Shown here piece after piece: positions 4,045-46,030 of a stretch of 61,976 nt of DNA. The stretch lies in the IMG/VR virus record IMGVR_UViG_3300043410_000417, positions 1 through 61,976 of that record. One strand, given 5' to 3'. The DNA is from a virus. Its lineage: Duplodnaviria; Caudoviricetes. The position numbers and the translations under genes are program-made. The notes beneath the pieces are model-generated. The model was given only the letters and a program-made list of their open reading frames with translations, was not told the origin of the DNA and made no database searches. Within the stretch, counting starts at the first letter, position 1; each line of letters begins with the position of its first letter.

Positions 4045-4308
4045 TTAATCAAATACCGCTACAATATTATCTTCGTCGACGATGGCGCGTTGTGCATCAC
4101 CGACTTTAACAACAGAGGCTTTGTTCCATTCTAGAAGAATGACATCGCCAACTTTAACAGTAGTCACTTCTGGACCAACTGCAAGGACTGTTGCTCGCTT
4201 AGATTCACGAACAGAGTTGGCTCCTTCAAGGATAATACCAGACTCAGTGGTCAATTCACTTTTGTTCTCAGCAACAAGAACCTTTTTATGTAGAGGTTTT
4301 ACGTTCAT
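4045..4308 (-). CDS. groES: co-chaperonin GroES (gp31-like)
   Basis: VKPLHKKVLV...TESGIIL...VLAVGP...VKVGD pattern. Confidence 0.9.
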   Translation of the reverse strand: MNVKPLHKKVLVAENKSELTTESGIILEGANSVRESKRATVLAVGPEVTTVKVGDVILLEWNKASVVKVGDAQRAIVDEDNIVAVFD

Positions 4309-4996: not shown

Positions 4997-5071
4997 TGGT
5001 GGTGATAGGTGGTATCGATCCACCCTCGTCGGCTTATGAAACCGCTACGCATCCATCTACGTCATATCACC
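4997..5071 (-). tRNA. tRNA with CAT anticodon (Met or Ile2)
   Basis: Loop TTCATAA, atypical T-loop ATCGATA, CCA. Confidence 0.7.
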
Positions 5072-5158: not shown

Positions 5159-5218
5159 CAACAGGCTTCGCTTTCTTTTCATAGACAGTGAAATTTTATT
5201 GTTGCTGAAAGAAGCCTA
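5159..5218 (-). ncRNA. CAGCAA-handle RNA 1 (isolated Asp GUC anticodon arm)
   Basis: AGGCUUC-UUUCAGCAA...UUUCA-CUGUCUA-UGAAA...GAAGCCU-GUUG. Confidence 0.65.
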
Positions 5219-5783: not shown

Positions 5784-5859
5784 TGGTGCTTCTAGCGGGA
5801 TTTGAACCCACCTTCATCCGTTTTAGAGACGGTCGCATAAGCCACTCTGCCATAGAAGC
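5784..5859 (-). tRNA. amber suppressor tRNA (CTA)
   Basis: Cloverleaf GCTTCTA/TAGAAGC, anticodon arm ACCGT-CTCTAAA-ACGGA, T-arm GTGGG-TTCAAAT-CCCGC, CCA. Confidence 0.85.
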
Positions 5860-7366: not shown

Positions 7367-7951
7367 TTAGTCTATACTACCGTTTCCATGCTTGAAACCC
7401 ACGGTACCACCCTGTTCTTGAATTCTCTTCAAGACGTCCTCAAACAAGATGGGTCTGAAGTCTGTTTGCTCGACGCAGACAGAGAAGTACCGTGGATCAA
7501 TCGCATCTAACTTCTTACCTCCAAAGCCACTCATCATAACTCTGTTGCTATGTAAGTGTCCGTGGATGTTGCAGCCGAAACGATATAACTGATCAGGATG
7601 AACAGGGATATGAGTCAAGATCAATCCATTCATCACGTGACTACCTCGAATGTCTCTGAAGAAAGGAGTATATTCTTCCATTCTAAAGATGTCGTGGTTA
7701 CCCTTGATCAAAACCTTATCACCGTTCAAACGATGTAAAATCTTCAAAGCCTTTCTGTTAATGACTACGTCACCTAAGTGGTAGACCTTATCAGTAGGCT
7801 TGACGGTTTCGTTCCACATCTTGACCATAGCCTCGTCCATTTCTTCAGGAGAGTCCCATGGTCTCAATTTTGTAACACCGTCTTCACGCATAAATCGGCA
7901 AACACCCATGTGTCCGAAGTGCGTGTCACTTGTTAAAAACACACTTGGCAT
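7367..7951 (-). CDS. calcineurin-like metallophosphoesterase
   Basis: SDTHFGH, HLGD, KGNHD, TH, HGHLH motifs; GGAGG RBS before MPSVF. Confidence 0.92.
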   Translation of the reverse strand: MPSVFLTSDTHFGHMGVCRFMREDGVTKLRPWDSPEEMDEAMVKMWNETVKPTDKVYHLGDVVINRKALKILHRLNGDKVLIKGNHDIFRMEEYTPFFRDIRGSHVMNGLILTHIPVHPDQLYRFGCNIHGHLHSNRVMMSGFGGKKLDAIDPRYFSVCVEQTDFRPILFEDVLKRIQEQGGTVGFKHGNGSID

Positions 7952-7975
7952 AATTGCCTCCATTCTATAGTTAAA

Positions 7976-8072
7976 CAACAGGATGTCTTGTTGCGCCCTT
8001 TGCGCACTCTGCCGAGTTTTGGTGGCAAAATAAGGAATCGAACCTTAAAGTTTGTTTGCTGCAAACATCCTA
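7976..8072 (-). ncRNA. CAGCAA-handle RNA 2 (circularly permuted tRNA body)
   Basis: AGGAUGU-UUGCAGCAA, T-arm UAAGG-UUCGAUU-CCUUA, UUUUGCC-ACCA, linker, GGCAGAG, D-like GCGC-AAAGG-GCGC, ACAUCCU-GUUG. Confidence 0.7.
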
Positions 8073-8076
8073 GAAC

Positions 8077-8166
8077 TGGCGGAAGTAGTAGGATTTGAAC
8101 CCACGAACCCTTTCGGGTTGCCTGTTTTCTAGACAGGTGCCATAAACCAGACTCGACCATACTTCC
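8077..8166 (-). tRNA. tRNA-Ser(AGA)
   Basis: Long variable arm, arm CCTGT-CTAGAAA-ACAGG, G73, CCA. Confidence 0.88.
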
Positions 8167-8171
8167 ATATA

Positions 8172-8285
8172 CAACAGGTTACTTCTTTCGTTTGCTCTAC
8201 CAGATGAGCTAATCTCGCGATGCGCGAAATGTTGGGATCGAACCAACTACATAACGTTGAGTTATGATTTGCTGTAAGTAACCTA
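8172..8285 (-). ncRNA. CAGCAA-handle RNA 3 (circularly permuted tRNA body)
   Basis: AGGUUAC-UUACAGCAA, T-arm GUUGG-UUCGAUC-CCAAC, capped acceptor AUUUCGCG-CAU-CGCGAGAU, D-arm GCUC-AUCUGGUA-GAGC, GUAACCU-GUUG. Confidence 0.75.
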
Positions 8286-8289
8286 AAAC

Positions 8290-8375
8290 TGGTGGATGTG
8301 GTAGGGATCGAACCTACCTGACCCGAAGGTCCATGGGGTTACAGCCCACTAGAACGCCATTGTTCCATCACATCC
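8290..8375 (-). tRNA. tRNA-Tyr(GTA), atypical long D-stem
   Basis: Loop CTGTAAC, long variable arm, D-stem TGGAAC/GTTCTA, CCA. Confidence 0.75.
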
Positions 8376-8381
8376 ATATCT

Positions 8382-8473
8382 TGGCGGAGAGCAGAGGAGT
8401 CGAACCCCATCCCATTTCTGAGAACCGTGTTTTCAAGGCACGTCGCAGGACCAACCCCGCTGCATTACTCTCC
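8382..8473 (-). tRNA. tRNA-Ser(TGA), possible 8/4 fold
   Basis: Loop CTTGAAA, long variable arm, acceptor GGAGAGTA/TGCTCTCC, CCA. Confidence 0.8.
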
Positions 8474-8483
8474 ATTATTCTTT

Positions 8484-8559
8484 TGGTGCTCACGTCGAGC
8501 CTCGAACTCGATCCTCTGCGTTACTAGGGCAGCATACCACCAACTAATACTTCGCGAGC
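8484..8559 (-). tRNA. tRNA-Thr(AGT), second divergent copy
   Basis: Arm CTGCC-CTAGTAA-CGCAG, G1-C72/C2-G71, CCA. Confidence 0.8.
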
Positions 8560-8563
8560 AATT

Positions 8564-8639
8564 TGGTACCCCTGGAGAGAATCGAACTCCCGTCTCAGCG
8601 TTCGTAGCACCGTATTCTTATCCGTTGAACTACAGGGGC
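8564..8639 (-). tRNA. tRNA-Arg(ACG)
   Basis: Cloverleaf, loop CTACGAA, CCA. Confidence 0.9.
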
Positions 8640-8645
8640 ATTATA

Positions 8646-8748
8646 CAACAGGTTAGTTGTTTTGCATGGGGAATTGAACCCCAACGGTTTTCGTAGAAAG
8701 AAAATTGCCGACCATCGGCGTTGCGTTGTTTTTGCTGTAACTAACCTA
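8646..8748 (-). ncRNA. CAGCAA-handle RNA 4 (D, anticodon and T arms without a real acceptor end)
   Basis: AGGUUAG-UUACAGCAA, GCCG-AUGGU-CGGC, UUUUC-UUUCUAC-GAAAA, UGGGG-UUCAAUU-CCCCA, CUAACCU-GUUG. Confidence 0.7.
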
Positions 8749-8752
8749 AAAC

Positions 8753-8826
8753 TGGTGCGGGTGGAGAGAATCGAACTCTCAACTAAACGTTGGCAACGTC
8801 TGATTTTACCATTAAACTACACACGC
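8753..8826 (-). tRNA. tRNA-Gly(GCC)
   Basis: Cloverleaf, loop TTGCCAA, CCA. Confidence 0.88.
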
Positions 8827-8831
8827 ATATT

Positions 8832-8906
8832 TGGTGGATGGTACAAGGTTCGAACTTGTGACCTTCTCCATGTCACGGAGATATTCTACCGCTGAAATAA
8901 CCATCC
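8832..8906 (-). tRNA. tRNA-Val(GAC)
   Basis: Cloverleaf, loop GTGACAT, CCA. Confidence 0.88.
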
Positions 8907-8914
8907 ATTAAACT

Positions 8915-8988
8915 TGGTACCTCGTGACAGAATCGAACTGCCGTAACCGCCGTGTAAAGACGGAGTTCTACCATTGAACTAACGAGGC
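8915..8988 (-). tRNA. tRNA-Val(TAC)
   Basis: Cloverleaf, loop TTTACAC, CCA. Confidence 0.9.
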
Positions 8989-8996
8989 ATAAAACT

Positions 8997-9125
8997 TGGT
9001 GGAGTCGGCGGGATTCGAACCACGCACAAGAACTTTTACAGAGTTAGAGCTATAGTGTTGCTGGAACAATTCTTCAGACAGAATTGGTTTTTTGCTATGC
9101 TATGCTACCATTACATCACGACTCC
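8997..9125 (-). ncRNA. tRNA-like RNA (GTA loop) with an internal permuted CAGCAA handle (RNA 5)
   Basis: Acceptor GGAGUCG/CGACUCC-ACCA, T-loop UUCGAAU, AACU-CUGUAAA-AGUU, plus ~50-nt insert containing CAAUUCU-GUCUGA-AGAAUUG-UUCCAGCAA. Confidence 0.7.
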
Positions 9126-9128
9126 AAA

Positions 9129-9254
9129 TTTTAATGAAACATACTCTCGACGTCAGGGGTCTTTTCATCGCGCTGGCTAGGCATGCTTCGCTACCGTGCT
9201 CAGATTAGCGGTCTGAACGTCACAGTAACCAATGATGAATATGCTTCATTAAAA
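9129..9254 (-). ncRNA. candidate ~125-nt ncRNA closed by a long terminal stem
   Basis: TTTTAATGAAACATACTC / GAATATGCTTCATTAAAA terminal inverted repeat with GC-richer interior. Confidence 0.5.
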
Positions 9255-9301
9255 TGACTTACTACTTGTCTCATTATACGCCATAAGTCAAGGCGAGGCT
9301 C

Positions 9302-9377
9302 TGGCACCGTAGACGGGAATCAAACCCGCCGCATTCCGATAGACAGTCGGTTATCACCATCAGGTGGACTCTACGGT
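9302..9377 (-). tRNA. tRNA-Asp(GTC)
   Basis: Loop CTGTCTA, G73, atypical D-arm, CCA. Confidence 0.78.
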
Positions 9378-9383
9378 ATAAAT

Positions 9384-9462
9384 TGGCTCCGTGTATGAGA
9401 ATCGAACTCATCTAACCATTGATTAACAGTCAAGCCCCTGCACCTTGCTTGGGTTTCACGGA
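9384..9462 (-). tRNA. tRNA-Asn(GTT)
   Basis: Loop CTGTTAA, atypical D-arm, CCA. Confidence 0.8.
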
Positions 9463-9564
9463 ATAAAATTCTGAGTCGCATTTGATTACACGGTTGATAC
9501 GCCCTTCCGTGATGTTACGGTTACACACTTACCTGCAGGACGCATGTGCAACTATCTTACATTA

Positions 9565-9639
9565 TGGTGGAAGCCGAGGAAATCGAATCCTTCTAGACAG
9601 CGACCTTGCAAGGGTCACCCGTAGCCCACTACTGCCCCC
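9565..9639 (-). tRNA. tRNA-Ala(TGC), reduced D-arm
   Basis: Loop CTTGCAA, G3-U70, very small D-loop, CCA. Confidence 0.7.
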
Positions 9640-9645
9640 ATTATA

Positions 9646-9713
9646 CAACAGAATCGTTTTTTGCGTTTTTCAATTACAAGTTGAATGCATTTTTGTTTGC
9701 TGAACCGATTCTA
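9646..9713 (-). ncRNA. CAGCAA-handle RNA 6 (isolated Thr UGU anticodon arm)
   Basis: AGAAUCG-GUUCAGCAA...UUCAA-CUUGUAA-UUGAA...CGAUUCU-GUUG. Confidence 0.65.
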
Positions 9714-9719
9714 AAACTT

Positions 9720-9795
9720 TGGTCTCCCTAGAGGGATTTGAACCCCCACCACATGACCCCAAATCACGGACGCTCCCAGATTACGCCATAGAGAG
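9720..9795 (-). tRNA. tRNA-Pro(TGG)
   Basis: Cloverleaf, loop TTTGGGG, CCA. Confidence 0.87.
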
Positions 9796-9802
9796 ATAAA
9801 AG

Positions 9803-9876
9803 TGGCATCCCGCTAGGGACTCGAACCCCAACCAACGGTTTTGGAGACCGCTATGCTGCCATTACACCAGCGAGAT
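9803..9876 (-). tRNA. tRNA-Trp(CCA)
   Basis: Cloverleaf, loop CTCCAAA, G73, CCA. Confidence 0.9.
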
Positions 9877-9883
9877 ATAAACT

Positions 9884-9958
9884 TGGTATTGCGTACGGGG
9901 ATCGAACCCGCCTACATAGGTTGAAAGCCTATTGACCTCACCAAAAGTCGAACGCAAT
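9884..9958 (-). tRNA. tRNA-Glu(TTC)
   Basis: Cloverleaf, loop CTTTCAA, CCA. Confidence 0.87.
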
Positions 9959-9964
9959 ATAAAA

Positions 9965-10032
9965 CAACAGGAAGGTTTTTGTCGCTAGACAACCAAAAAG
10001 TTTAGCTAATTGAATTTGCTGAACCCTTCCTA
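9965..10032 (-). ncRNA. CAGCAA-handle RNA 7
   Basis: AGGAAGG-GUUCAGCAA...CCUUCCU-GUUG; interior hairpin ambiguous. Confidence 0.6.
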
Positions 10033-10036
10033 AAAA

Positions 10037-10111
10037 TGGTTCCCACGAAAGGAATCGAACCTTAGATCTATCGGTTATCAGCCGATTGCTTGACCATTAA
10101 GCTACATGGGA
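10037..10111 (-). tRNA. tRNA-Ile(GAT)
   Basis: Cloverleaf, loop CTGATAA, CCA. Confidence 0.88.
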
Positions 10112-10119
10112 ATAAATTC

Positions 10120-10195
10120 TGGTGCCGAAGACTGGAGTCGAACCAGTGACACATGGATTTTCAATCCACTGCTCTACCACCTGAGCTACATCGGC
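10120..10195 (-). tRNA. tRNA-Phe(GAA)
   Basis: Cloverleaf, loop TTGAAAA, CCA. Confidence 0.93.
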
Positions 10196-10208
10196 ATACA
10201 ATTTTCTT

Positions 10209-10283
10209 TGGGGAGTCATACGAGAATCGAACTCGTGATAACGGAATCACAACCCGTGGTTTTGCCACTAAACTAATGACTCC
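10209..10283 (-). tRNA. tRNA-His(GTG)
   Basis: Loop TTGTGAT, G-1/C73 pair, CCA. Confidence 0.88.
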
Positions 10284-10294
10284 CCAAAGAAAAC

Positions 10295-10369
10295 TGGTAG
10301 GGGCACAGAGAATCGAACTCTGATTAACTGGTTAAAAGCCAGCTACTTTAGCCGTTAAGTTATACCCCC
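10295..10369 (-). tRNA. tRNA-Lys(TTT)
   Basis: Cloverleaf, loop CTTTTAA, CCA. Confidence 0.9.
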
Positions 10370-10372
10370 ATA

Positions 10373-10448
10373 TGGTCCACCCTCTGGGATTCGAACCCAG
10401 ACCTCATAGATTAAGAGTCTAGAATGCTGCCAATAACACCTAGAGTGG
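10373..10448 (-). tRNA. tRNA-Lys(CTT)
   Basis: Cloverleaf, loop CTCTTAA, CCA. Confidence 0.87.
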
Positions 10449-10558
10449 TTGTACGTATTATTTTGATTTTACGTGCCAACTCAGACCATACGGGGGATCT
10501 GAGCGACACTAACGTTTAGCACGTTTCATATCGTCCTCTCTTTTCAAAAATGTTGTTA

Positions 10559-10667
10559 CCAAACAAAAACACATTACGCCATGCGAGCCCATCTGCATGC
10601 TTAGGCTTTTTGTCTTCTCGTTCCAGCTGGCTCTTACGACAGTGGCGTCACGCAATGTGTTTATGTT
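10559..10667 (-). ncRNA. candidate ~110-nt ncRNA closed by a long terminal stem
   Basis: CCAAACAAAAACACATTACG / CGCAATGTGTTTATGTTTGG inverted repeat directly after tRNA-Gln. Confidence 0.45.
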
Positions 10668-10741
10668 TGGCACCCGAGGTAGGAATCGAACCTACAATAA
10701 CAGAGTCAAAGTCTGGTGTGTTACCACTACACTACTCGGGA
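10668..10741 (-). tRNA. tRNA-Gln(TTG)
   Basis: Cloverleaf, loop CTTTGAC, U1-A72, G73, CCA; first tRNA of the array. Confidence 0.9.
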
Positions 10742-10800
10742 ACAAAAGAGTCACTAGCTACCAGCGAACCTTCGCTAGTGACTCATTAAAACTGGTACGC

Positions 10801-10854: not shown

Positions 10855-10883
10855 ATTATACATCAATTAAGATTGTAAGTCAA
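10855..10883 (-). promoter_or_regulatory. sigma70-type promoter of tRNA array (proximal)
   Basis: TTGACT-17 nt-TATAAT. Confidence 0.8.
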
Positions 10884-10933
10884 CAACTTTCTTTTCGCAT
10901 CTCAGGAATCGCTTCCCGATCAACTAAGACATA

Positions 10934-10962
10934 ATTCTACATCATGTCAGCGTTACTGTCAA
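10934..10962 (-). promoter_or_regulatory. sigma70-type promoter of tRNA array (middle)
   Basis: TTGACA-17 nt-TAGAAT. Confidence 0.78.
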
Positions 10963-11030
10963 CAACTTTCTGAAAAGACCCTCAACTTTGTAAGGGATTC
11001 TCAGAACCGTCTTCAGTAACAGAGCATTGA

Positions 11031-11058
11031 ATTCTACCACATTCGCGATAAAAGTCAA
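11031..11058 (-). promoter_or_regulatory. sigma70-type promoter of tRNA array (distal)
   Basis: TTGACT-16 nt-TAGAAT. Confidence 0.65.
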
Positions 11059-38968: not shown

Positions 38969-39661
38969 TTATGTCAAGCGTTTAGAATACTTTCTATCCC
39001 ACTTGGCGATCTGCTGGATGATCTTTTGAGGGGAGATGTTGTTTCTGAAGTCGTAGTTGAACGTCTTCAAGAAATAGTGGAGAGTGGATGAGTCGCGGTA
39101 GGTCTTACATCTCAATAGTAGGGTTTGTACTGGGATGTTAGGCTTCTTCATTTTGAAGTCTAGGTACACACAGTGGGCGTATGCCTGAATCTCATCAAAT
39201 TCAGAAAGGTATCTACGCTCGGCATCTTTGAGAGAATGACCGACTCTCTTATATGGTACGACATACTTACTGTCTTCGTCGTAGCGACGATCGTACTGCA
39301 TAAAGTGGATCATCTCGTGCATCAGAGTCTGGATGACACGATACTTAAACTTATCCCAAGTCTTCTGAGTAAACGTATATTTATCGAAGTTGGTTGTGTA
39401 GATGTGGATGGTGCACTGACGTTCGTCTGGAGCATACTCCCCACCGACAGCCACGTATTTAGACCAAGTCTTCTTCGGAGGATCTCTAAACTCTATTCTA
39501 GTTTTCCACTTCCTAAAATAGTTTGAGAGACCAGACGAGTCATTTTCATACTCGTCTAAGTCTCTCCAGATTTTTGCAGGGATGAGTTTAGCTCTAAATG
39601 GACGCTCATAGAAATTGAGCATATCCATCCAGTCGAAATTAGCTGTTTCTAGGAAATTCAT
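38969..39661 (-). CDS. HExxH-containing hypothetical protein
   Basis: HEMIHFMQ..YL..DEIQAYA. Confidence 0.7.
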   Translation of the reverse strand: MNFLETANFDWMDMLNFYERPFRAKLIPAKIWRDLDEYENDSSGLSNYFRKWKTRIEFRDPPKKTWSKYVAVGGEYAPDERQCTIHIYTTNFDKYTFTQKTWDKFKYRVIQTLMHEMIHFMQYDRRYDEDSKYVVPYKRVGHSLKDAERRYLSEFDEIQAYAHCVYLDFKMKKPNIPVQTLLLRCKTYRDSSTLHYFLKTFNYDFRNNISPQKIIQQIAKWDRKYSKRLT

Positions 39662-39683
39662 AGCTCCCTAGAAAGCCCCAACC

Positions 39684-40292
39684 TCAACCTAGATGTTGAT
39701 CAAAGAAGGCTAGGACTTTCGCTTGCTCCTGTAAGTTAGTGTTACTAAACTCAGTAATATAGGGCATCAAGTCAAAATTCGATAGTAGATTACTATATTT
39801 AGTCTCGCGCCCTCTTAGGAATTGCTCGGACTGATCGGAGCCTCGTTCCTTGTAGCGTTGTTCTAGGAGATCCTTCGGAGCCTTCAAATAGACCACCTGA
39901 AGGTCAGTGTTCGGGAGACTCATACAAAACTCTAGGAAAGACTGGTTGAAGACTCGGTCACCTTCGAAGAGGATGTTACAGTTATTTGAGGAGATCCACT
40001 CTTGAAGAGGAGGCTGGACTGCCATAGAAAGACGGTCGGTTCCAGCGAAGGTTTCACCTTCCTCGTACTTACCGAGAACATATAGGTCGCGTTCTGCATT
40101 GTAGGAAGCAGAAACCAGTTTGGCTGGCTCACCAACGATCCAGTCCTTACCTTCCATATACTTACGGAAGAGAGTAGTCTTGCCAGTTCCAGGCTGACCA
40201 CCAACCGCGATAATCTTACGGGTTTTCAAAGTATTCTTGATCAGCTTAACTTCGATCTGATCCTGTACGCCTAACTTATCTACAAATGACAT
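39684..40292 (-). CDS. P-loop kinase of DNA base-modification clusters
   Basis: GGQPGTGKTT, LGKY..FAGTDRLS, FEGDR; adjacent to aGPT-Pplase gene. Confidence 0.75.
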   Translation of the reverse strand: MSFVDKLGVQDQIEVKLIKNTLKTRKIIAVGGQPGTGKTTLFRKYMEGKDWIVGEPAKLVSASYNAERDLYVLGKYEEGETFAGTDRLSMAVQPPLQEWISSNNCNILFEGDRVFNQSFLEFCMSLPNTDLQVVYLKAPKDLLEQRYKERGSDQSEQFLRGRETKYSNLLSNFDLMPYITEFSNTNLQEQAKVLAFFDQHLG

Positions 40293-40301
40293 TTTATATC
40301 C

Positions 40302-41321
40302 TTAAGCAAATGCTTCCAAACCAACTAGAACTGGTTGCTCATCATTGAACATCCATTCCAGATTCTCTAACTTACCAGTATTGACAAAGGATGAGAATCT
40401 CTCCTTATCAATACCCTTCTTATTATCCAAACGCAGGTCGATGGTTTCGTTTCGGGCATCCCACATTACCTGCCATTCGATACCATACCACTCGTCGCCC
40501 TCGCACTTCATAATCTCTTCAGCCTGACGATCTAGGTAGTAACCCAGATAACGTCCATGGTGTTCACGGAAAATCTTCTTGAATGAACACAGGCAGGTTT
40601 CCATTGTGAAGAAGTCTACCTGATCACTTATTGTTGGGAATCTCGCTCTCGTTTCATCCAAGATGGACTTGGCTTCTTGCTCCAGATATACATACTCTGC
40701 TCCAGTAAGTTTCGCATCGTATTTGTCATCTTTTCCAAGGGCGAGAAGAAGCCCGTTACGATGGCTACGAGAGCCATCAAAATCATCAAGCATAAGTGAA
40801 GTAGGGCTAATCCGAATACCAGCGGTATGCTTAAGATGCTGAAGATAAAACCAAGTAGAGTAACGACCAAACTTGTGGAGGCTACCTTTAACGCCTTCCC
40901 AAAGATTGGTAAATGACTGTTCTTCTGTATCACCATAATATGACTCCAATACCTCGCGTTGTGTTTTGTTACCGATAAACTTATGATACGACTCGAACAT
41001 TGCAGGGAGATGCCCCTTGTTCCACTTTGTATCAGTCTGATAGCGCAGACGTTTGTAGTTGGCAGTGTTCCACTGCTCCATACGATCTACAGTGGCTAGT
41101 TCGTAGTCTGGAAATTCATTCATCAGAACCCAAGCAGTTGGCAGGTAGTAGGTGTTACCGTACAACCAGCAAAGCCATAGCTTCTGCTCAGTGTTATGTT
41201 CGTAGCGTTTGTTCAGGTAGTTGGTAGCCCAGACTGCTGGATCACAATCATCATACTTCAATGACCAAGCATACCAACGAATGAACGCCTCACGACGATT
41301 CTGTTTTTCTCTGTAATCCAT
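40302..41321 (-). CDS. amino acid:DNA transferase (aGPT-Pplase-like, HhH glycosylase fold)
   Basis: FGRYSTWFYLQHL, SHRNGL, METCLCSFKK, GRYLGYYLDR. Confidence 0.75.
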   Translation of the reverse strand: MDYREKQNRREAFIRWYAWSLKYDDCDPAVWATNYLNKRYEHNTEQKLWLCWLYGNTYYLPTAWVLMNEFPDYELATVDRMEQWNTANYKRLRYQTDTKWNKGHLPAMFESYHKFIGNKTQREVLESYYGDTEEQSFTNLWEGVKGSLHKFGRYSTWFYLQHLKHTAGIRISPTSLMLDDFDGSRSHRNGLLLALGKDDKYDAKLTGAEYVYLEQEAKSILDETRARFPTISDQVDFFTMETCLCSFKKIFREHHGRYLGYYLDRQAEEIMKCEGDEWYGIEWQVMWDARNETIDLRLDNKKGIDKERFSSFVNTGKLENLEWMFNDEQPVLVGLEAFA

Positions 41322-41962
41322 TATTTCAAAAAGTCTTCAAGTGACGGTTGTTCCATCAATGCTTCACGCAACCAAGCCTTACCGACATAGTCGATAGCTT
41401 CCTGAGTCTTGGCTTTCTTCTTATCACCCCACGTGTACGATTCTAATCCTTCGCGTCGGAATTGCTCTCGCGCTTTTTGTGGAGGTAAAGATTGTAGTGG
41501 GTAGACGATGGCTTTGTCCCGCCATGCGATCTGTTCTGCGCGTGTAGCGAATAGTGGTTGGTCGCTGCGGAGTGAACCAGTGGGGTCAACTGCCCAGAAC
41601 ACCAGACCATTCCGTAAGTGCCAAGTGACAGACGTTGGTGTGCATGATATTTTGAGGCGTTTGACGTTTCGTTCTTCGACTGCGTATTTGATCCACGCAT
41701 CCCAGCATTTCGACGCATAACCTTTTCCTTCTTTTCCTTCTACCGTAACAATCTCGTAAAGGTTAGCGTAGCCATCACGATTGAATGTAGCGAAGATCAA
41801 TGAGACGATCTCACCGTTGTCTTCAAGAGCCATCGGTAAGTTTTTCTCGTAGTTGTGAAATCTAGTCCACAATGAATGTGCAGCCGATAAGAACTTGGTG
41901 TTCCTACCAGCTGGACTTTCATCGATAATCTGTTGGACTTTTGTTGAGTTAATGAATAACAT
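41321..41962 (-). CDS. GNAT-fold acetyltransferase
   Basis: IVTVEGKEGKGYAS acetyl-CoA motif A. Confidence 0.7.
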   Translation of the reverse strand: MLFINSTKVQQIIDESPAGRNTKFLSAAHSLWTRFHNYEKNLPMALEDNGEIVSLIFATFNRDGYANLYEIVTVEGKEGKGYASKCWDAWIKYAVEERNVKRLKISCTPTSVTWHLRNGLVFWAVDPTGSLRSDQPLFATRAEQIAWRDKAIVYPLQSLPPQKAREQFRREGLESYTWGDKKKAKTQEAIDYVGKAWLREALMEQPSLEDFLK

Positions 41963-42665
41963 TTTGTAAGTCGACTGCGCCATCAATTTTTTCTTGTTCA
42001 ACCATCATACACAAATCAGAATCGAATCTGAAGTATGTATTCATTGCAATTAGAGTAGTTGGATCTTCAATACCTGCTCGTTTTACAACATCGGCAGTAG
42101 AGGTAATTATACACGCATTGGGTCTAGATGTCAAATATAACGGACGCTTGCCATTACGGAACACTGTAAGCGACTTGGTTCTTCCAAGCATACAGACTGC
42201 AAGGGAAGAATCCTTCCACTTCAACAGAGGAGATTCACCATGACCGAAGGTATGTAGCAAGAGTTCGGTATCGTTCTTACCCTCACACTTGTAACCGTAT
42301 AGCTTCTCCCAGTTCTCTGGAAGTTCTTGAGTGATAACACCGTTGTGAACCACGCTAATAAAAGAGTTGTAGATCGGTTGGTTATACTCGAGATCAGAAG
42401 TGCTGTAACGACAGTGACCGACTAGGTAAAGGTTACCATCTTCGTTGACCATATCGCGAAGGTTATCGTTGTGCATGAACTTCTCAATGAACTGATCAGC
42501 AGGGATAGGCTCTTTGATAGTTTCAATTCCTTTAGACCACTTAGGCAAAAAGGAGATGCCTGTCGCATGCATCCCACGAATACGAGACTCGTGGAAGACG
42601 CGCTTAAGCATCTCGAAATCATCAACAGTTGGCTTTTGAATAATCGCGCCAATTACAGAACACAT
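41949..42665 (-). CDS. class II (Ntn) glutamine amidotransferase
   Basis: N-terminal MC, RG.HATG, GHCRYSTS, NQP, HNG, ND(T)E. Confidence 0.9.
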   Translation of the reverse strand: MCSVIGAIIQKPTVDDFEMLKRVFHESRIRGMHATGISFLPKWSKGIETIKEPIPADQFIEKFMHNDNLRDMVNEDGNLYLVGHCRYSTSDLEYNQPIYNSFISVVHNGVITQELPENWEKLYGYKCEGKNDTELLLHTFGHGESPLLKWKDSSLAVCMLGRTKSLTVFRNGKRPLYLTSRPNACIITSTADVVKRAGIEDPTTLIAMNTYFRFDSDLCMMVEQEKIDGAVDLQNVIH

Positions 42666-43261
42666 TATAGAATCTCCAAGTGAGTTAGGTTTTTCTTGCT
42701 ACCCAAAACACCTTTATAAAAAGTATTGAACGCCAAAGAGATTCTAGTCTCTCTGGTGTTATTCACATTCACCCCATGGGGCGTTTGAGAAGGGAACAAA
42801 ATAATGTCTCCCTGCTCAACATCAATAGAACGCATCGGTGAATTGTAAGGTGTCATCTTACTTATCAGCGGACGCAACGGATAGTTGTCCTGCTTTCTAA
42901 ACACCATGAACGGTGCTGGATTTGGTGATAGGTAAATCACTCCACTCACAATGCTGTTTACGTGTATGTGTGTATGGTGAGAAGTATTATACTCATTGAA
43001 GTTCATCCACGATTGGGTGATCTCCAGTGAGACTCCAGAAGCACCCATCACCTTATCTAGATAAGTGTTCAGATGTTGCTGAACCTTTTCTCTTAGGGAA
43101 TCAACTCTATCTAAGACAGCGCTGTCGTTCGATGTAGTGTTTCCATACGTATTGCTATACTCACCACTGGCTCTGATAGAAGCCAGAGAAGATAACTCTT
43201 CATCGCTGAATGTTATCTTCCCCTTATACAAAGGCTCTGGAAAGATTTCCAGAACTTCCAT
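42665..43261 (-). CDS. 2OG-Fe(II) oxygenase (TIGR02466-like)
   Basis: SWMN..HIHVNS.VSGV.Y..FPS..PHGV..RISLAFN. Confidence 0.85.
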   Translation of the reverse strand: MEVLEIFPEPLYKGKITFSDEELSSLASIRASGEYSNTYGNTTSNDSAVLDRVDSLREKVQQHLNTYLDKVMGASGVSLEITQSWMNFNEYNTSHHTHIHVNSIVSGVIYLSPNPAPFMVFRKQDNYPLRPLISKMTPYNSPMRSIDVEQGDIILFPSQTPHGVNVNNTRETRISLAFNTFYKGVLGSKKNLTHLEIL

Positions 43262-44625
43262 CAGAAGAACCCTTCGAGGCTATTAGCCTTCTCAGCTTCT
43301 GGGTGATACTTCAATAGGTTTTCGCGACCTAGTTTAGACTCACAATATTCATACCACTCTTCAGACTCCCACATACCAGATGAAACACCGTTCCATAGAT
43401 GACGCTCAGAACCGTCTTCGTTCTTATGTCCTGGATGTTCCTTGTTCAAACGACGACCTTCAACGAATTCGTAACGGCAGTCTTCGTAGTCTTTGCTACC
43501 CAACTGTAGCATATTCTCACGGAAGTAGCAAACCAAAGAAACACGTTCTGCTTCTTCGTCCAACATTTCGATTGGAGTGTTACCGTGCATAACTTCGTGG
43601 TTGTTGATCAGCAGTAGGTCACCTGGACGAACGTTGACAGCAACACGGTACTCAGGAGCAACTAAGTAGCCACCTTTGTAGTTACCGTTGTTGGACAGAA
43701 CCAGAAGGTTAGACAAACCAGTGTCCAAGTCACCTGCGTCATAGTGAGCAGCAGTGCGGAAAGTCTTGTTCACAGTGATAGTAGTGAACGGAGTTCCAGG
43801 GACTAGGTAGCGAGAGTCCAACTTCTTCGCAGCTTCCATCTGGTTGTTGTATCTCCAAGGAAGAAGATCCTTGAAACCAGCAGCCAGAGTTTGTAGGAAT
43901 GGGAAAGCCATCGCAAACTTCTCTGGGTTCTTCTCAGTGTAAGAAGTCGCACGACCATAAGGGATACGTGGATAACGATCAAACCAACCAGCAATACCAG
44001 AGAACACACCGTTAGCGTAAGTAGTTGCGCAAACATACTTGTTTACGATACGCTTAGCTTCTGCACGTTGTTCATCAGGCATTAACTTACGAGTAGCCTC
44101 GACCCAATCTTCGAAGACGAAATTGTCTTTCTTAACAGCCTGAATACCCCAGACATTGTTCTTATTAGATGGCTGAGTTGCCTTACCAGCGTGAGCAGCT
44201 TTAATCTCTTCGACTGGATCAGTACCCATAATGTTGGCTTTAGGGTTTGAGAAGAAGTCGATGATATCATACTCATAGTCAGTAACCCACTCACGATTAC
44301 CTAGCTTCTCACCACGTGGACCAGCAGCAATACCGCGATTCTGAGTTTCAACTGCAGCTTCTCTCAGACCAAGATATGCAGCATCCTGTTCTTCTTTAGT
44401 GAAGTAGTTCTTGCGAAACTTAAAGATAATCTTGCGCTCATCCATACCCTTAGAGCAAGTGTTACAGTCGCTAGTGCAAACCGCCTGATCACCCAGATCG
44501 CAGTCTGGTGGTGCATATACATCACAATCTTCTTCAACAAGAACATCATAATGACGCTCGTCCACAAACTGACCTAGCAAGTGAGATGCGTCTAATTTTT
44601 CTTTGGCTACGATTACCTTAACCAT
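43261..44625 (-). CDS. TET/JBP-family 2OG-Fe(II) nucleobase dioxygenase
   Basis: PFTTITVN.TFRTAAHYDAGD, HGNT, RVSLVCYFRE; GGAGA RBS before MVKV. Confidence 0.85.
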   Translation of the reverse strand: MVKVIVAKEKLDASHLLGQFVDERHYDVLVEEDCDVYAPPDCDLGDQAVCTSDCNTCSKGMDERKIIFKFRKNYFTKEEQDAAYLGLREAAVETQNRGIAAGPRGEKLGNREWVTDYEYDIIDFFSNPKANIMGTDPVEEIKAAHAGKATQPSNKNNVWGIQAVKKDNFVFEDWVEATRKLMPDEQRAEAKRIVNKYVCATTYANGVFSGIAGWFDRYPRIPYGRATSYTEKNPEKFAMAFPFLQTLAAGFKDLLPWRYNNQMEAAKKLDSRYLVPGTPFTTITVNKTFRTAAHYDAGDLDTGLSNLLVLSNNGNYKGGYLVAPEYRVAVNVRPGDLLLINNHEVMHGNTPIEMLDEEAERVSLVCYFRENMLQLGSKDYEDCRYEFVEGRRLNKEHPGHKNEDGSERHLWNGVSSGMWESEEWYEYCESKLGRENLLKYHPEAEKANSLEGFF

Positions 44626-44635
44626 TTCTATCTCC

Positions 44636-46030
44636 TTAAAACTTCCAACCATCAAACTTGTTCTCGGAATTAACCCTCTTACCGAAGTCTCCCTTATCGA
44701 AGACTGGAGTATCATCCTGACCAGAGTCTGACAAACCTTCTTGCGCAGATGCTTCTACATCGTAGAGTTTCATCTTTGCTCTATCAATACCAACCACAAA
44801 ACGCTTGAAGTAACTAGGATCATTATATCGGTTTTTCAATTGCTTGACAATAATTTGATTCAATGCTTCCAGTTCTTCGTTGCTTACAAGCGCGAACATA
44901 AAGTCAGCTGTTGCAGGTAGACCAAAAGATTCTGAAGTGTCTTCAAGTCCTGGATCTGAGTTTGTATATCCAGATCGAGTTGTCTGAGTTGCGCTAACAA
45001 TTGGGACGTTATATTCAACGGCTAAACCTCTTAGTTCTTCTGCGATTGCCTTAACATATGTATAAGAGTTTACAGAGCCTCCCTGCTTCATACGCTGAGA
45101 AGCGCAGATGTTCAGGTAGTCAATGAAGATGATATCGGGAACAAAATCACGCTTCAACTTCAACTCTTCCAACAATGCTCGGAAATGACCAGAGTGTGCA
45201 CCAGCTGTTGGATATTCTTTAATGATCAGCTTGCCTTGAGTCTTTTTCGTAATCTTACTGATACGAGTCTCATAGATGTCGCGGTCGATCACCTTCAGTT
45301 CGTCCATCGTCAGGTTCAACAGATTAGCGTCGATACGTTCAGCGATACGTTCTTCTGCCATTTCCATTGTTATGTATAAGACGTTTTTACCCTGTGTTAG
45401 ACAACCTGCGGCAACGTGACACATAAACAACGACTTACCAACACCAGTACCTGCCAACGCGATGTTCAGAGTCTTCTTGGACAAACCACCCTTCGTGATC
45501 TTGTTGAACATCTCGAGATCGAAAGCGATCTTCTCTTCGACACGGTGGTAATACTCATAACGAGACTCATGGTCTTCCAAGTAGTCGTGACCCACATGGC
45601 TATCAAAAGAGACTGCTAGCGCATCAGACAGAATGGAAGGGATAGCGTCCTGCGTCAGAACCTTGTCGCGCCCATCGATGATCTTAATCGAATTAAGAAT
45701 TGCGTTATAGACTGCTCGGTCTTTACAGAACTTCTCAGTATGTTCCAACATCCAGTCTTCATTGACTGGAGCATCACTTAGACTATCGACAAAGGAATTG
45801 ACCTCAGCCAACTCTTTGTCAGTGAGGTCTTTTCGGTTTCCAAGTTCAATGGAAACAATGTCTTTCGTTGGAGGCTTGTTGTACTTGTTAAAGAACTCAG
45901 TTACAACGTTGGCTACGATAGCCTCTTTCTTGTCAACGAAATAATCGCGTTTGATGAATGGTACTACTTTTCGGCAATATTGCTCATCGTAAATCAGTCT
46001 GCTCAGAATCTGTTGTTCTATTCTCATCAA
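44636..46030 (-). CDS. gp41: replicative DNA helicase
   Basis: LAGTGVGKSL, IDYLNIC, SATQTTR, SESFGLPATAD, KQLKNRY. Confidence 0.96.
   Translation of the reverse strand: MMRIEQQILSRLIYDEQYCRKVVPFIKRDYFVDKKEAIVANVVTEFFNKYNKPPTKDIVSIELGNRKDLTDKELAEVNSFVDSLSDAPVNEDWMLEHTEKFCKDRAVYNAILNSIKIIDGRDKVLTQDAIPSILSDALAVSFDSHVGHDYLEDHESRYEYYHRVEEKIAFDLEMFNKITKGGLSKKTLNIALAGTGVGKSLFMCHVAAGCLTQGKNVLYITMEMAEERIAERIDANLLNLTMDELKVIDRDIYETRISKITKKTQGKLIIKEYPTAGAHSGHFRALLEELKLKRDFVPDIIFIDYLNICASQRMKQGGSVNSYTYVKAIAEELRGLAVEYNVPIVSATQTTRSGYTNSDPGLEDTSESFGLPATADFMFALVSNEELEALNQIIVKQLKNRYNDPSYFKRFVVGIDRAKMKLYDVEASAQEGLSDSGQDDTPVFDKGDFGKRVNSENKFDGWKF

What the first reader, a model, noticed from the sequence alone, without database searches (positions are those of the whole stretch)
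8997..9125. 129-nt tRNA with the CAGCAA handle inserted internally
Seen: intact acceptor stem, CCA, T-loop and a GUA anticodon-like loop, with about 50 extra nt between the D region and anticodon arm. The insert holds the handle in permuted order (3' strand CAAUUCU first, short loop, then AGAAUUG-UUCCAGCAA). Inference: the handle is a portable structural module, and this RNA might be a chargeable tRNA tethered to the handle-binding protein. It is too short for a group I intron and has no G3-U70 pair or tag ORF of tmRNA.
Basis: partly seen in the sequence, partly recalled or inferred. Interest (0 to 1): 0.7.

Follow-up and report, generated by a model that had tools for sequence, protein, structure and literature searches.

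The report
tRNA-shaped phage RNA with handle arm
A phage tRNA gene cluster holds a conserved tRNA-shaped small RNA with an extra arm that it shares with neighbouring small RNAs, so it probably works as a docking or decoy RNA and not as a decoder.

Summary
The minus strand 9125..8997 encodes a 129-nt RNA with a complete class-I tRNA body. A 54-nt arm (9099..9046) splits its anticodon stem after the first pair. The arm is a circularly permuted copy of the 'handle' that closes six other small RNAs in the same tRNA array.

The RNA is not a pseudogene. There are 25 distinct variants among 42 sequences (window plus 41 loci, some from one contig). 98.5% of cells are paired and 13 of 31 pairs show compensatory change, a level reached by 0 of 500 shuffles.

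It is probably not a decoder. The 'anticodon' is GUA in 21 variants and GUG in 4. The T stem always has a bulge. Sister RNAs in relatives have other loops or no second hairpin.

Splicing is unsupported. No splicing endonuclease, RtcB or Rnl1 was found in 5 near-complete relatives. Two contigs from one RNA library span the arm.

The closest known kind is the bacterial Y RNA YrlA, a permuted tRNA mimic. This RNA is the same design opened at the acceptor end. The Ro-binding motif and a Ro60 gene are both absent.

The handle's partner and the function remain unknown. No Rfam 15 family other than tRNA matches it above threshold.

The parts
8997..9125 (-). Whole 129-nt tRNA-like RNA with internal handle arm
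   Evidence: Model R1 gives 150.6 bits over exactly these bases. Rfam tRNA gives 35.1 bits over 9000-9125. 25 variants are aligned.
9119..9125 (-). Acceptor stem, 5' strand. It pairs with 9001-9007.
   Evidence: 5 of its 7 pairs show compensatory change, and 99.4% of cells are paired.
9102..9116 (-). D arm: 4-bp stem and a 7-nt loop with GG
   Evidence: It is invariant in all 25 variants. The phage tRNA-Trp of relatives carries the same or a nearly identical D arm (exact in L054).
9046..9099 (-). 54-nt inserted arm between the first and second pair of the anticodon stem
   Evidence: Rfam treats it as an insertion. Without it the flanks form a 5-bp anticodon stem, G27-C43 plus AACU/AGUU (read).
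9067..9086 (-). Handle hairpin: 7-bp stem (CAAUUCU / AGAAUUG) and a 6-nt loop. The loop sits where the two ends of the terminal-handle RNAs lie.
   Evidence: 3 of its 7 pairs show compensatory change, and 98.9% of cells are paired. The loop varies in length and sequence.
9058..9066 (-). Conserved linker UUYCNGCAA (here UUCCAGCAA), 3' of the handle stem
   Evidence: The exact motif is found. C, G, C and A are invariant, and N is A, C or U in the 25 variants. The motif follows the 5' stem strand of the terminal handles in the same way.
9087..9095 (-). A-rich linker (GC followed by an A-run), 5' of the handle stem
   Evidence: It is conserved in the variants. The same GCAAAAA block precedes the 3' stem strand of the terminal handles.
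9031..9045 (-). Anticodon-like hairpin: 4-bp stem and a 7-nt loop YUGURAA (here CUGUAAA)
   Evidence: 2 of its 4 pairs switch together (AACU/AGUU to CCCU/AGGG). The loop is GUA-type in 21 variants and GUG-type in 4.
9008..9025 (-). T arm: 5-bp stem with one bulged pyrimidine, and loop UUCGAAU
   Evidence: 2 of its 5 pairs show compensatory change. The bulge is U or C in all 25 variants.
8997..9007 (-). Acceptor stem 3' strand, discriminator A and encoded CCA
   Evidence: ACCA is invariant. GUUUU follows one base after the CCA, as it follows the CCA of other tRNAs in the array.
9646..9712 (-). Terminal-handle RNA most similar to the insert. Its cargo is an anticodon-stem-loop-like hairpin.
   Evidence: Its 5' part matches the insert's 16-mer with 3 mismatches.
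8172..8284 (-). Terminal-handle RNA whose cargo is T arm, closed hairpin, D arm (YrlA-like). It has the same cyclic order of parts as the 129-nt RNA.
   Evidence: Rfam YrlA gives 30.2 bits, below the gathering score of 69. It is also listed.
8646..8747 (-). Terminal-handle RNA with a hairpin, an anticodon-like hairpin and a T arm
7976..8071 (-). Terminal-handle RNA with a T arm first. It lies just upstream of the phosphoesterase gene.
9965..10031 (-). Short terminal-handle RNA
5159..5217 (-). Short terminal-handle RNA with an anticodon-like hairpin (loop CUGUCUA)

Best explanation
The gene encodes a stable, non-decoding, tRNA-shaped small RNA with two modules.

SHOWN:
- It has a full class-I tRNA body: a 7-bp acceptor stem plus ACCA, a D arm, a 4-nt variable loop, a T arm, and the usual tertiary nucleotides (U8, A14, GG, T-loop).
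- Its anticodon stem is opened after the first pair by a 54-nt arm.
- That arm is the 'handle' that closes six other small RNAs of the array, in circularly permuted order.
- All helices are kept by compensatory change in relatives.
- The cyclic order of parts is handle strand, CNGCAA linker, (hairpin), T arm, acceptor, D arm, A-run, handle strand. This is the order in the neighbouring YrlA-like handle RNA. There the break is at the handle and the acceptor is closed. Here the break is at the acceptor and the handle is closed.

INFERRED:
- It is cut out of the array transcript like a tRNA, by RNase P at the 5' end and at the GUUUU site after the CCA.
- It keeps its arm.
- It works like a bacterial Y RNA. 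The handle arm binds the factor that all handle RNAs share (not identified). The tRNA body, with its elbow, CCA end and UGU-containing loop, engages tRNA-recognising proteins.
- The most likely role is as an adaptor or decoy in the contest over tRNAs between phage and host.
For: 1. Real and selected. There are 25 distinct variants among 42 sequences, at 78-92% identity. 98.5% of 775 cells are paired. 13 of 31 pairs show changes on both sides. The covariation score is 0.308 against 0.102 in shuffles, reached by 0 of 500 shuffles. Slid controls score 0.071 or less.
2. tRNA body. Rfam tRNA gives 35.1 bits over the whole model. The D arm and T loop are invariant.
3. Shared module. The handle occurs in 170 distinct terminal-handle RNAs, with 44 distinct stem cores and G-U outnumbering A-C by 44 to 15 on this strand. 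The linkers and spacing are the same in both topologies.
4. Recurring design. Relatives carry other acceptor-CCA RNAs with an internal handle. Some have a different second hairpin (L095, L098, L116, L131, L136, L173). Some have none (L147, L182, L155, L160). Some have nothing but acceptor stem and handle (L101, L162). In the hairpin-bearing type the pair that brackets the insertion is C-G or U-A where this RNA has G-C (read).
5. Not a decoder. The loop is GUA-type in 21 variants and GUG-type in 4, and two otherwise near-identical variants (L128, L009) differ there. The T stem has a conserved bulge. The array already has two tRNA-Tyr genes and one tRNA-His gene.
6. Not spliced, as far as can be seen. 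Two contigs of RNA library X16 (151 and 121 nt) run through the arm, and no listed joint skips it. No tRNA-intron endonuclease, RtcB or Rnl1 was found in 5 of 5 near-complete relatives.
7. YrlA parallel. The neighbouring element 8168-8275 is the best YrlA match of the record. YrlA is described as a Ro60-binding module plus a tRNA-like module that resembles a circularly permuted tRNA without a free CCA (passages of 10.1101/312249).
Against: - No partner for the handle was found. No TROVE/Ro60 gene lies in the window (38% of a genome) or in 5 near-complete relatives.
- The YrlA motif GNCGAAN0-1G (PMC4201824) is not present. The handle has CNGCAA.
- Removing exactly the 54 nt would leave a perfect cloverleaf. 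An intron would look the same.
- The expression evidence is thin. It rests on contigs from one library, at depth 3-5, and DNA in that library cannot be excluded.
- The RNA is dispensable. It is present in 2 of 5 near-complete relatives.
- Sister RNAs that hold only acceptor stem, CCA and handle suggest that the tRNA body may be mere packaging.
- The adaptor or decoy role rests on analogy alone.
Confidence: 0.5

Rival explanations
1. tRNA-scaffolded handle. Only the handle is functional, as an aptamer-like binding site or sponge present in several copies per genome. The tRNA body, like the varied cargo of the other handle RNAs, only provides processing by RNase P and RNase E, a CCA end and stability.
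For: The only parts common to all internal-handle RNAs are the acceptor stem, the CCA and the handle. Two kinds lack the D and T arms altogether (L101, L162). There are 4-6 terminal handles per array in close relatives and 6 in the window, which fits a dosage or sponge role. The cargo is very diverse.
Against: Within the 129-nt family the D arm, the T loop and the UGU..AA loop are invariant or nearly so. The second hairpin is kept by compensatory change. That is more constraint than packaging needs.
Confidence: 0.2
2. Interrupted tRNA gene. The 54-nt arm is an intron-like insert removed by protein enzymes. This yields a 75-nt class-I tRNA with anticodon GUA that decodes.
For: Exact removal gives a 5-bp anticodon stem (G-C plus AACU/AGUU), a 7-nt loop with U33 and A37, a 4-nt variable loop, and intact tertiary nucleotides and CCA. 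The bracketing G and C are invariant.
Against: At 54 nt it is too short for a self-splicing intron, and no intron family matches. No splicing endonuclease, RtcB or Rnl1 was found in 5 of 5 near-complete relatives. The junction is a three-way junction with 3-, 2- and 0-nt linkers, not a bulge-helix-bulge (read from the structure). Position 36 varies A/G. The T stem has a bulge. The insert's linkers are conserved and shared with free-standing RNAs. Sister RNAs would have no anticodon arm after removal. RNA-library contigs keep the arm.
Confidence: 0.1
3. An aminoacylatable tRNA-like RNA whose charged CCA end is brought to a handle-bound enzyme, for a use outside normal decoding.
For: ACCA, G1-C72 and G2-C71 are invariant and the elbow is intact. 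All internal-handle RNAs end in N-CCA, whereas terminal-handle RNAs end in GUUG.
Against: No identity set fits. There is no G3-U70. There is no long variable arm for bacterial TyrRS, and no G-1/C73 for HisRS (established knowledge). The CCA is equally explained by tRNA-type processing. Nothing here tests charging.
Confidence: 0.1
4. A decaying tRNA gene hit by a recombining handle element, with no function.
For: The arrays are heavily reshuffled and the flanking tRNAs differ between relatives. The RNA is absent from 3 of 5 near-complete relatives. ARAGORN does not call it.
Against: 13 pairs show compensatory change and 98.5% of cells are paired across variants that differ by up to 22%. The loops and linkers are conserved.
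Confidence: 0.05

Closest known systems
YrlA, the tRNA-like bacterial Y RNA (Rfam RF02553)
   Same: It has two modules: a protein-binding stem with a conserved single-stranded motif on its 5' strand, and a tRNA-like domain with T arm, acceptor-like stem and D arm. The binding stem leaves the body where the anticodon stem lies. YrlA is described as resembling a circularly permuted tRNA (passages of 10.1101/312249; PMC4201824). The neighbouring handle RNA at 8168-8275 is the record's best YrlA match.
   Different: The break is at the acceptor end, so this RNA has a free CCA, which YrlA lacks. The handle is an added arm beside a retained anticodon-like hairpin. The motif is CNGCAA, not GNCGAAN0-1G. 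No Ro60 gene is nearby or in 5 relatives. The Rfam score of the neighbour is 30.2 against a gathering score of 69, and the 129-nt RNA itself does not match.
Ordinary tRNA (Rfam RF00005)
   Same: It shares the acceptor stem, ACCA, D arm, T arm, variable loop and tertiary nucleotides. It lies in a tRNA array with the same spacers.
   Different: It has a 54-nt arm inside the anticodon stem, a bulged T stem and a variable 'anticodon'.
Small stable RNAs of the phage T4 tRNA cluster (rnaC and rnaD, species 1 and 2)
   Same: They are non-tRNA stable RNAs of 119-139 nt encoded in the tRNA cluster of a T4-type phage. rnaC carries a T-arm-like hairpin (annotation and sequence). This phage's DNA polymerase is gp43-like, about 54% identical to those of cyanomyophages.
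   Different: There is no handle motif and no sequence likeness. Model R1 reaches only 17.4 bits on rnaC. As far as I recall, the T4 RNAs have no assigned function.
Circularly permuted and split tRNA genes, and permuted (two-piece) tmRNA
   Same: One RNA design is written in two circular orders (listing of PMC3978253). A relative's contig even holds a permuted tmRNA.
   Different: Those genes yield a normal tRNA or tmRNA after processing. Here both orders seem to be end products, and no bulge-helix-bulge motif or splicing enzyme is present.
Engineered tRNA scaffolds for expressing RNA aptamers (recalled; compare the listing of PMC3753655)
   Same: A foreign structured RNA is placed in the anticodon arm of a tRNA, so that the cell processes and stabilises it.
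   Different: This case is natural, conserved and phage-borne. The insert sits at 27/28 and does not replace the anticodon stem-loop.

Membership tests
tRNA (RF00005) | Score at or above the Rfam gathering score | tested here: met
   35.1 bits against 29, but only with lax filters and with a 68-nt insertion in place of the anticodon arm. It is missed with default filters.
tRNA (RF00005) | Acceptor stem with NCCA, D and T arms with conserved tertiary nucleotides | tested here: met
tRNA (RF00005) | Uninterrupted 5-bp anticodon stem with a 7-nt loop, and an anticodon kept among close relatives | tested here: not met
   The stem is interrupted by 54 nt after its first pair. The loop is GUA-type in 21 variants and GUG-type in 4 of 25. 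ARAGORN at default settings finds no gene.
tRNA (RF00005) | Aminoacylation and use on the ribosome | not testable with these tools
   This needs infected cells or purified synthetases.
YrlA / bacterial Y RNA (RF02553) | Score at or above the Rfam gathering score (69 bits) | tested here: not met
   The 129-nt RNA gives no YrlA match at E up to 5. The neighbouring element 8168-8275 scores 30.2 bits.
YrlA / bacterial Y RNA (RF02553) | GNCGAAN0-1G motif near the 5' end (PMC4201824, passages) | tested here: not met
   The handle has CNGCAA at the equivalent place.
YrlA / bacterial Y RNA (RF02553) | Encoded within about 4 kb of a Ro60 (TROVE) gene on the same strand | tested here: not met
   No TROVE match in the window. 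The only match in 5 near-complete relatives is 12.7 bits, in a protein with two methyltransferase domains.
YrlA / bacterial Y RNA (RF02553) | tRNA-like module joined to a binding stem at the anticodon-stem position | tested here: met
   The topology is permuted relative to YrlA.
tmRNA | G3-U70 pair, tag reading frame, detection by ARAGORN or Rfam | tested here: not met
   Pair 3-70 is A-U or G-C. No tmRNA was found in the window.
Self-splicing intron in a tRNA gene | Group I or II core | tested here: not met
   The insert is 54 nt. No intron family matches over 9046-9099 at E up to 1.
Protein-spliced (archaeal-type) tRNA intron | Splicing endonuclease and ligase available; bulge-helix-bulge at the splice sites | tested here: not met
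   PF01974, PF01139 and PF09511 are absent from 5 of 5 near-complete relatives. The junction is three-way with 3/2/0-nt linkers. Host enzymes could not be examined.

The most novel reading that the evidence does not exclude
The handle RNAs form a phage-encoded modular RNA-protein system. One constant handle docks one effector. Interchangeable tRNA-derived modules (anticodon-like hairpins, T/D-arm bodies, whole tRNA bodies) aim the effector at particular tRNAs or tRNA-handling enzymes. The 129-nt RNA is the member that offers a real, possibly aminoacylated, CCA end.
Probability: 0.12. Interest if true: 0.9.

Novelty: new variant of a known kind. Interest (0 to 1): 0.68.

Why it matters
Phage tRNA arrays are usually read as codon-supply or anti-nuclease spare parts. 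This array, and those of its relatives, also carries a large family of structured RNAs built from tRNA pieces around one constant module. No Rfam 15 family other than tRNA reaches its threshold on them.

The 129-nt RNA is the informative member. It shows that the module is portable and tolerates circular permutation. It also shows that the module can be grafted onto a complete tRNA body with a free CCA end.

If the handle's partner is found, this would extend the Y-RNA principle (a binding stem plus a tRNA mimic) to phages that have no Ro60 gene. It could also reveal a new kind of interference with host tRNA biology. In addition, it is a natural precedent for tRNA-scaffolded RNA expression.

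Tried and rejected
- Megablast of 8000-10800 against the phage collection found nothing.
- Ro60/TROVE and RtcB are absent from the window. TROVE, RtcB, the tRNA-intron endonuclease and Rnl1 are absent from 5 near-complete relatives.
- The one weak TROVE hit (12.7 bits) lies in a protein with two methyltransferase domains.
- I considered a link between the UGU loop and queuosine, because PHROGs gave ORF 43261-44715 a weak queuine tRNA-ribosyltransferase match. Pfam shows that ORF is a Tet/JBP dioxygenase, so the link is dropped.
- The handle pattern in 185,579 species genomes gave 6 hits. Only 4-6 of the 8 stem positions pair in them, and 3 of those are fixed by the pattern, so these are chance matches.
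- ARAGORN with the intron option finds nothing at default settings. At a lowered threshold it forces a CUA anticodon with a 46-nt intron. That model contradicts the covarying hairpin.
- RNAalifold proposes another fold for the D region and a GC/GC pair between the linkers. Those columns are invariant, so neither fold can be tested. I kept the cloverleaf.
- The Rfam alignment pairs CAGCA with the 3' UGUUG. I rejected this pairing because N varies without compensation, the tail is missing from the internal form, and the pairing would cross the covarying stem with no linker.
- A k-turn and a bulge-helix-bulge were checked by eye and do not fit.
- The handle is not tied to the phosphoesterase gene. 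A handle lies upstream in only 15 of 79 loci.
- RNA runs X15 and X18 gave no cover over 8994-9135, and X17 gave cover in only one bin. This says nothing either way.
- Four literature searches turned up no description of these RNAs.
- Not done: a search for the handle's partner by comparing genomes with and without handles.

Full report
**Setting.** The window is a 61,976-base virus record, judged 38% complete. Its DNA polymerase is of the T4 gp43 type, about 54% identical to those of cyanomyophages. Near-identical DNA is held by freshwater, aquatic and wastewater metagenomes. Eight runs from four studies hold at least half of the sampled words, and one of those studies may be the source. ARAGORN finds 35 tRNA genes on the minus strand between 3878 and 10741. 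Three strong promoter-like sites lie upstream at 10855-11058. The finding lies inside this array.

**The observation.** The reverse complement of 8997-9125 shows these parts:
- a 7-bp acceptor stem, discriminator A and an encoded CCA
- U8
- a 4-bp D stem with a GG-bearing loop
- a T loop UUCGAAU
- a hairpin with loop CUGUAAA

ARAGORN and Rfam with default filters do not report it. With laxer filters Rfam's tRNA model scores 35.1 bits (gathering score 29) over model positions 1-71. It puts 68 nt where the 17 positions of the anticodon arm belong. The single-sequence fold is unremarkable (z = -1.91), so the case rests on comparison with relatives.

**The handle.** I printed the gaps between tRNAs. 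Six minus-strand elements share one frame: 9965-10031, 9646-9712, 8646-8747, 8172-8284, 7976-8071 and 5159-5217. The frame has these features:
- After the previous tRNA's CCA comes GUUUU.
- A stem strand beginning AGR follows, then UU.CAGCAA.
- A variable middle follows, then an A-run and the complementary stem strand ending YCU.
- The element ends in GUUG and a U/A-rich spacer.

The insert of the 129-nt RNA has the same pieces in the other order: A-run, stem strand, a 6-nt loop, stem strand, UUCCAGCAA. Its 16-mer matches element 9646-9712 with 3 mismatches. The spacing from AGR to CNGCAA is 10 nt in both forms.

**Relatives.** The phosphoesterase encoded in the array has at least 597 relatives in IMG/VR, of which 80 loci were kept. 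An exact handle pattern hit 64 stretches, and a conserved 21-mer of the RNA hit 32. BLAST with the 129 nt found full-length copies. The set is 42 sequences including the window, and 25 of them are distinct, at 78-92% identity. Some loci are the same contig fetched twice. I dropped only identical duplicates before aligning.

**Covariation.** I tested a cloverleaf with the extra arm. 98.5% of 775 cells pair, and 13 of 31 pairs have changes on both sides (86 cells). The covariation score is 0.308 against 0.102 in shuffles. No shuffle out of 500 reaches it, and sliding the partners by 1-3 columns gives at most 0.071. By helix:

| Helix | Pairs with compensatory change |
|---|---|
| Acceptor stem | 5 of 7 |
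| Handle stem | 3 of 7 |
| Second hairpin | 2 of 4 (AACU/AGUU to CCCU/AGGG) |
| T stem | 2 of 5 |
| Three-pair closure of the arm | 1 of 3 (88% of cells paired) |
| D stem | none; invariant, so says nothing |
| G-C pair bracketing the insertion | none; invariant, so says nothing |

A bulged U or C in the T stem is present in all 25 variants.

**Where the arm sits.** The arm is 54 nt (9099-9046). Without it the flanks would form a 5-bp anticodon stem (G-C plus four pairs), a 7-nt loop and a 4-nt variable loop. The arm therefore enters between positions 27 and 28 and makes a three-way junction with linkers of 3, 2 and 0 nt. This is read.

**Decoder or not.** Several observations speak against decoding:
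- The loop is YUGURAA. It is GUA-type in 21 variants and GUG-type in 4 (L152, L009, L019, L173). The near-identical pair L128 and L009 differ at that base. Such a switch would change the codon read, so selection for decoding is unlikely.
- The array already has two long-armed tRNA-Tyr genes and a tRNA-His gene.
- Sister RNAs in relatives have the same plan but other loops in the second hairpin (L095, L098, L116, L131, L136, L173). Others have no second hairpin (L147, L182, L155, L160), or only acceptor stem, CCA and handle (L101, L162).
- In the hairpin-bearing type the pair bracketing the insertion is C-G or U-A. This supports the junction. It is read and was not formally aligned.

**Spliced or not.**
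- No intron family matches.
- No tRNA-intron endonuclease, RtcB or T4-type RNA ligase 1 was found in five relatives that are 93-100% complete. Host enzymes could not be examined.
- In RNA library X16, two contigs of 151 and 121 nt lie on 8997-9114 and 9009-9120. They carry 7-9 other letters and small indels of the kind seen among the variants. No listed joint skips the arm.
- This is weak evidence. The data are contigs at depth 3-5 from one library, DNA carry-over is possible, and one joint was not shown.

**The family.** In the fetched loci I found 170 distinct terminal-handle RNAs, of which 113 are 80 nt or shorter.
- Many of the short ones carry an AU-rich 5-bp hairpin with a 7-nt loop of the form CU-NNN-AA, which resembles an anticodon stem-loop. 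This is by eye, because the minimum-energy folds of these AU-rich RNAs are noisy.
- 47 contain a T-loop motif.
- With a slightly different filter, 182 elements show 44 distinct stem cores. G-U pairs outnumber A-C by 44 to 15 on this strand, as expected for an RNA helix and not for a DNA palindrome.
- Close relatives have 4-6 handles per array. More distant ones (L022, L038) have none on the array strand.
- The 129-nt RNA is single-copy in the window. It is present in 2 of 5 near-complete relatives. Its neighbours differ from genome to genome.
- The handle pattern gave only chance matches in one genome per prokaryote species.

**Comparison with what is known.** Element 8168-8275 is the record's best match to Rfam YrlA, at 30.2 bits against a gathering score of 69. 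Its middle reads T arm, closed hairpin, D arm.
- YrlA is described as a Ro60-binding module joined to a tRNA-like module. The authors say it resembles a circularly permuted tRNA and lacks a free CCA (passages of 10.1101/312249).
- Its presumed Ro60 site is GNCGAAN0-1G, and its genes lie within 4 kb of Ro60 (passages of PMC4201824).
- Going round the 129-nt RNA, the order of parts is the same as in element 8168-8275. Only the break has moved, from the handle to the acceptor end.
- Membership in YrlA is not met on score, on motif or on a neighbouring Ro60 gene. The likeness is one of design.
- T4's rnaC and rnaD are the classical non-tRNA RNAs of a T4-type tRNA cluster. They share no handle, and model R1 reaches only 17.4 bits on rnaC.

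**What it most likely does.** The structure, the conservation, the shared module and the permuted relation are shown. The following is inferred. The RNA is released like a tRNA and keeps its arm. It acts as a two-module RNA whose handle binds the family's common partner, while the tRNA body meets tRNA-recognising proteins. An adaptor or decoy role in tRNA-centred conflict fits the setting, which is a large tRNA array with a metallophosphoesterase gene inside it. The conserved U-G-U matches what I recall as the recognition element of tRNA-guanine transglycosylase and the target of colicin E5-type nucleases. That comes from memory and was not tested. The main rival is that the tRNA body is only packaging for the handle.

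**Verdict.** The finding is real, conserved and structurally unusual. 'Chargeable Tyr-like tRNA' is unlikely as a decoder and is untested as a charged RNA. It is a new variant of the tRNA-mimic / Y-RNA kind and belongs to a family that no Rfam 15 family other than tRNA captures. The partner and the function remain open.

Noticed in passing
window 5159-5217, 7976-8071, 8172-8284, 8646-8747, 9646-9712, 9965-10031 (minus strand): Six small RNAs closed by the same handle. Their middles are built from tRNA parts (anticodon-like hairpins, T arms, D arms). The related loci hold 170 distinct members. No Rfam family reaches its threshold on them.
   Followed up: partly
L098:447-570, L116, L131, L095, L136, L173:7549 region; L147:5550 region, L182, L155, L160; L101:11752 region, L162:977 region: Relatives carry other acceptor-CCA RNAs with an internal handle arm. 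One kind has a different second hairpin, one has none, and a minimal kind is only acceptor stem plus handle.
   Followed up: partly
window 5784-5859 (minus strand): A tRNA with anticodon CUA, which ARAGORN labels Pyl. It would read the amber stop codon. The window's long reading frames look intact under the standard code, so its use is unclear.
   Followed up: no
window 8386-8473, 9305-9378, 9387-9462, 5000-5071 and about 9565-9640 (minus strand): Further tRNA-like genes that ARAGORN misses. Rfam scores them low (27-45 bits) with the tRNA or tRNA-Sec models. Several are covered by short contigs in RNA libraries.
   Followed up: no
window 9126-9300 (minus strand): A 175-nt stretch without a tRNA just upstream of the 129-nt RNA. 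It is not conserved in position among relatives, and it holds only a weak promoter-like site (9156-9128).
   Followed up: partly
window 7367-7978 (minus strand): A metallophosphoesterase gene (PHROG 547; weak Pfam Metallophos_2 match) sits inside the tRNA array. In some relatives (L023, L026) another reading frame ends directly upstream of it. This may be an RNA-end healing enzyme, but that was not tested.
   Followed up: no
window 38969-44715 (minus strand): A cluster that looks like a DNA base hypermodification pathway: a Tet/JBP dioxygenase, an amino acid:DNA transferase, a P-loop nucleotide kinase, a glutamine amidotransferase, a GNAT acetyltransferase and a 2OG-Fe oxygenase.
   Followed up: no
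L101:1787-2164: A relative's contig that also carries handle RNAs encodes a permuted, betaproteobacterial-type tmRNA (142.7 and 133.8 bits). This hints at a betaproteobacterial host for that phage.
   Followed up: no
L174:922-2361 (relative G003): A 479-aa protein with two methyltransferase domains, one with a weak match to the CmoB-type family (Methyltransf_9). It lies a few kb from the tRNA array and may modify tRNA.
   Followed up: no
window 4045-4308 (minus strand): A GroES-type co-chaperonin gene (Cpn10, 55.6 bits) lies between tRNA genes.
   Followed up: no
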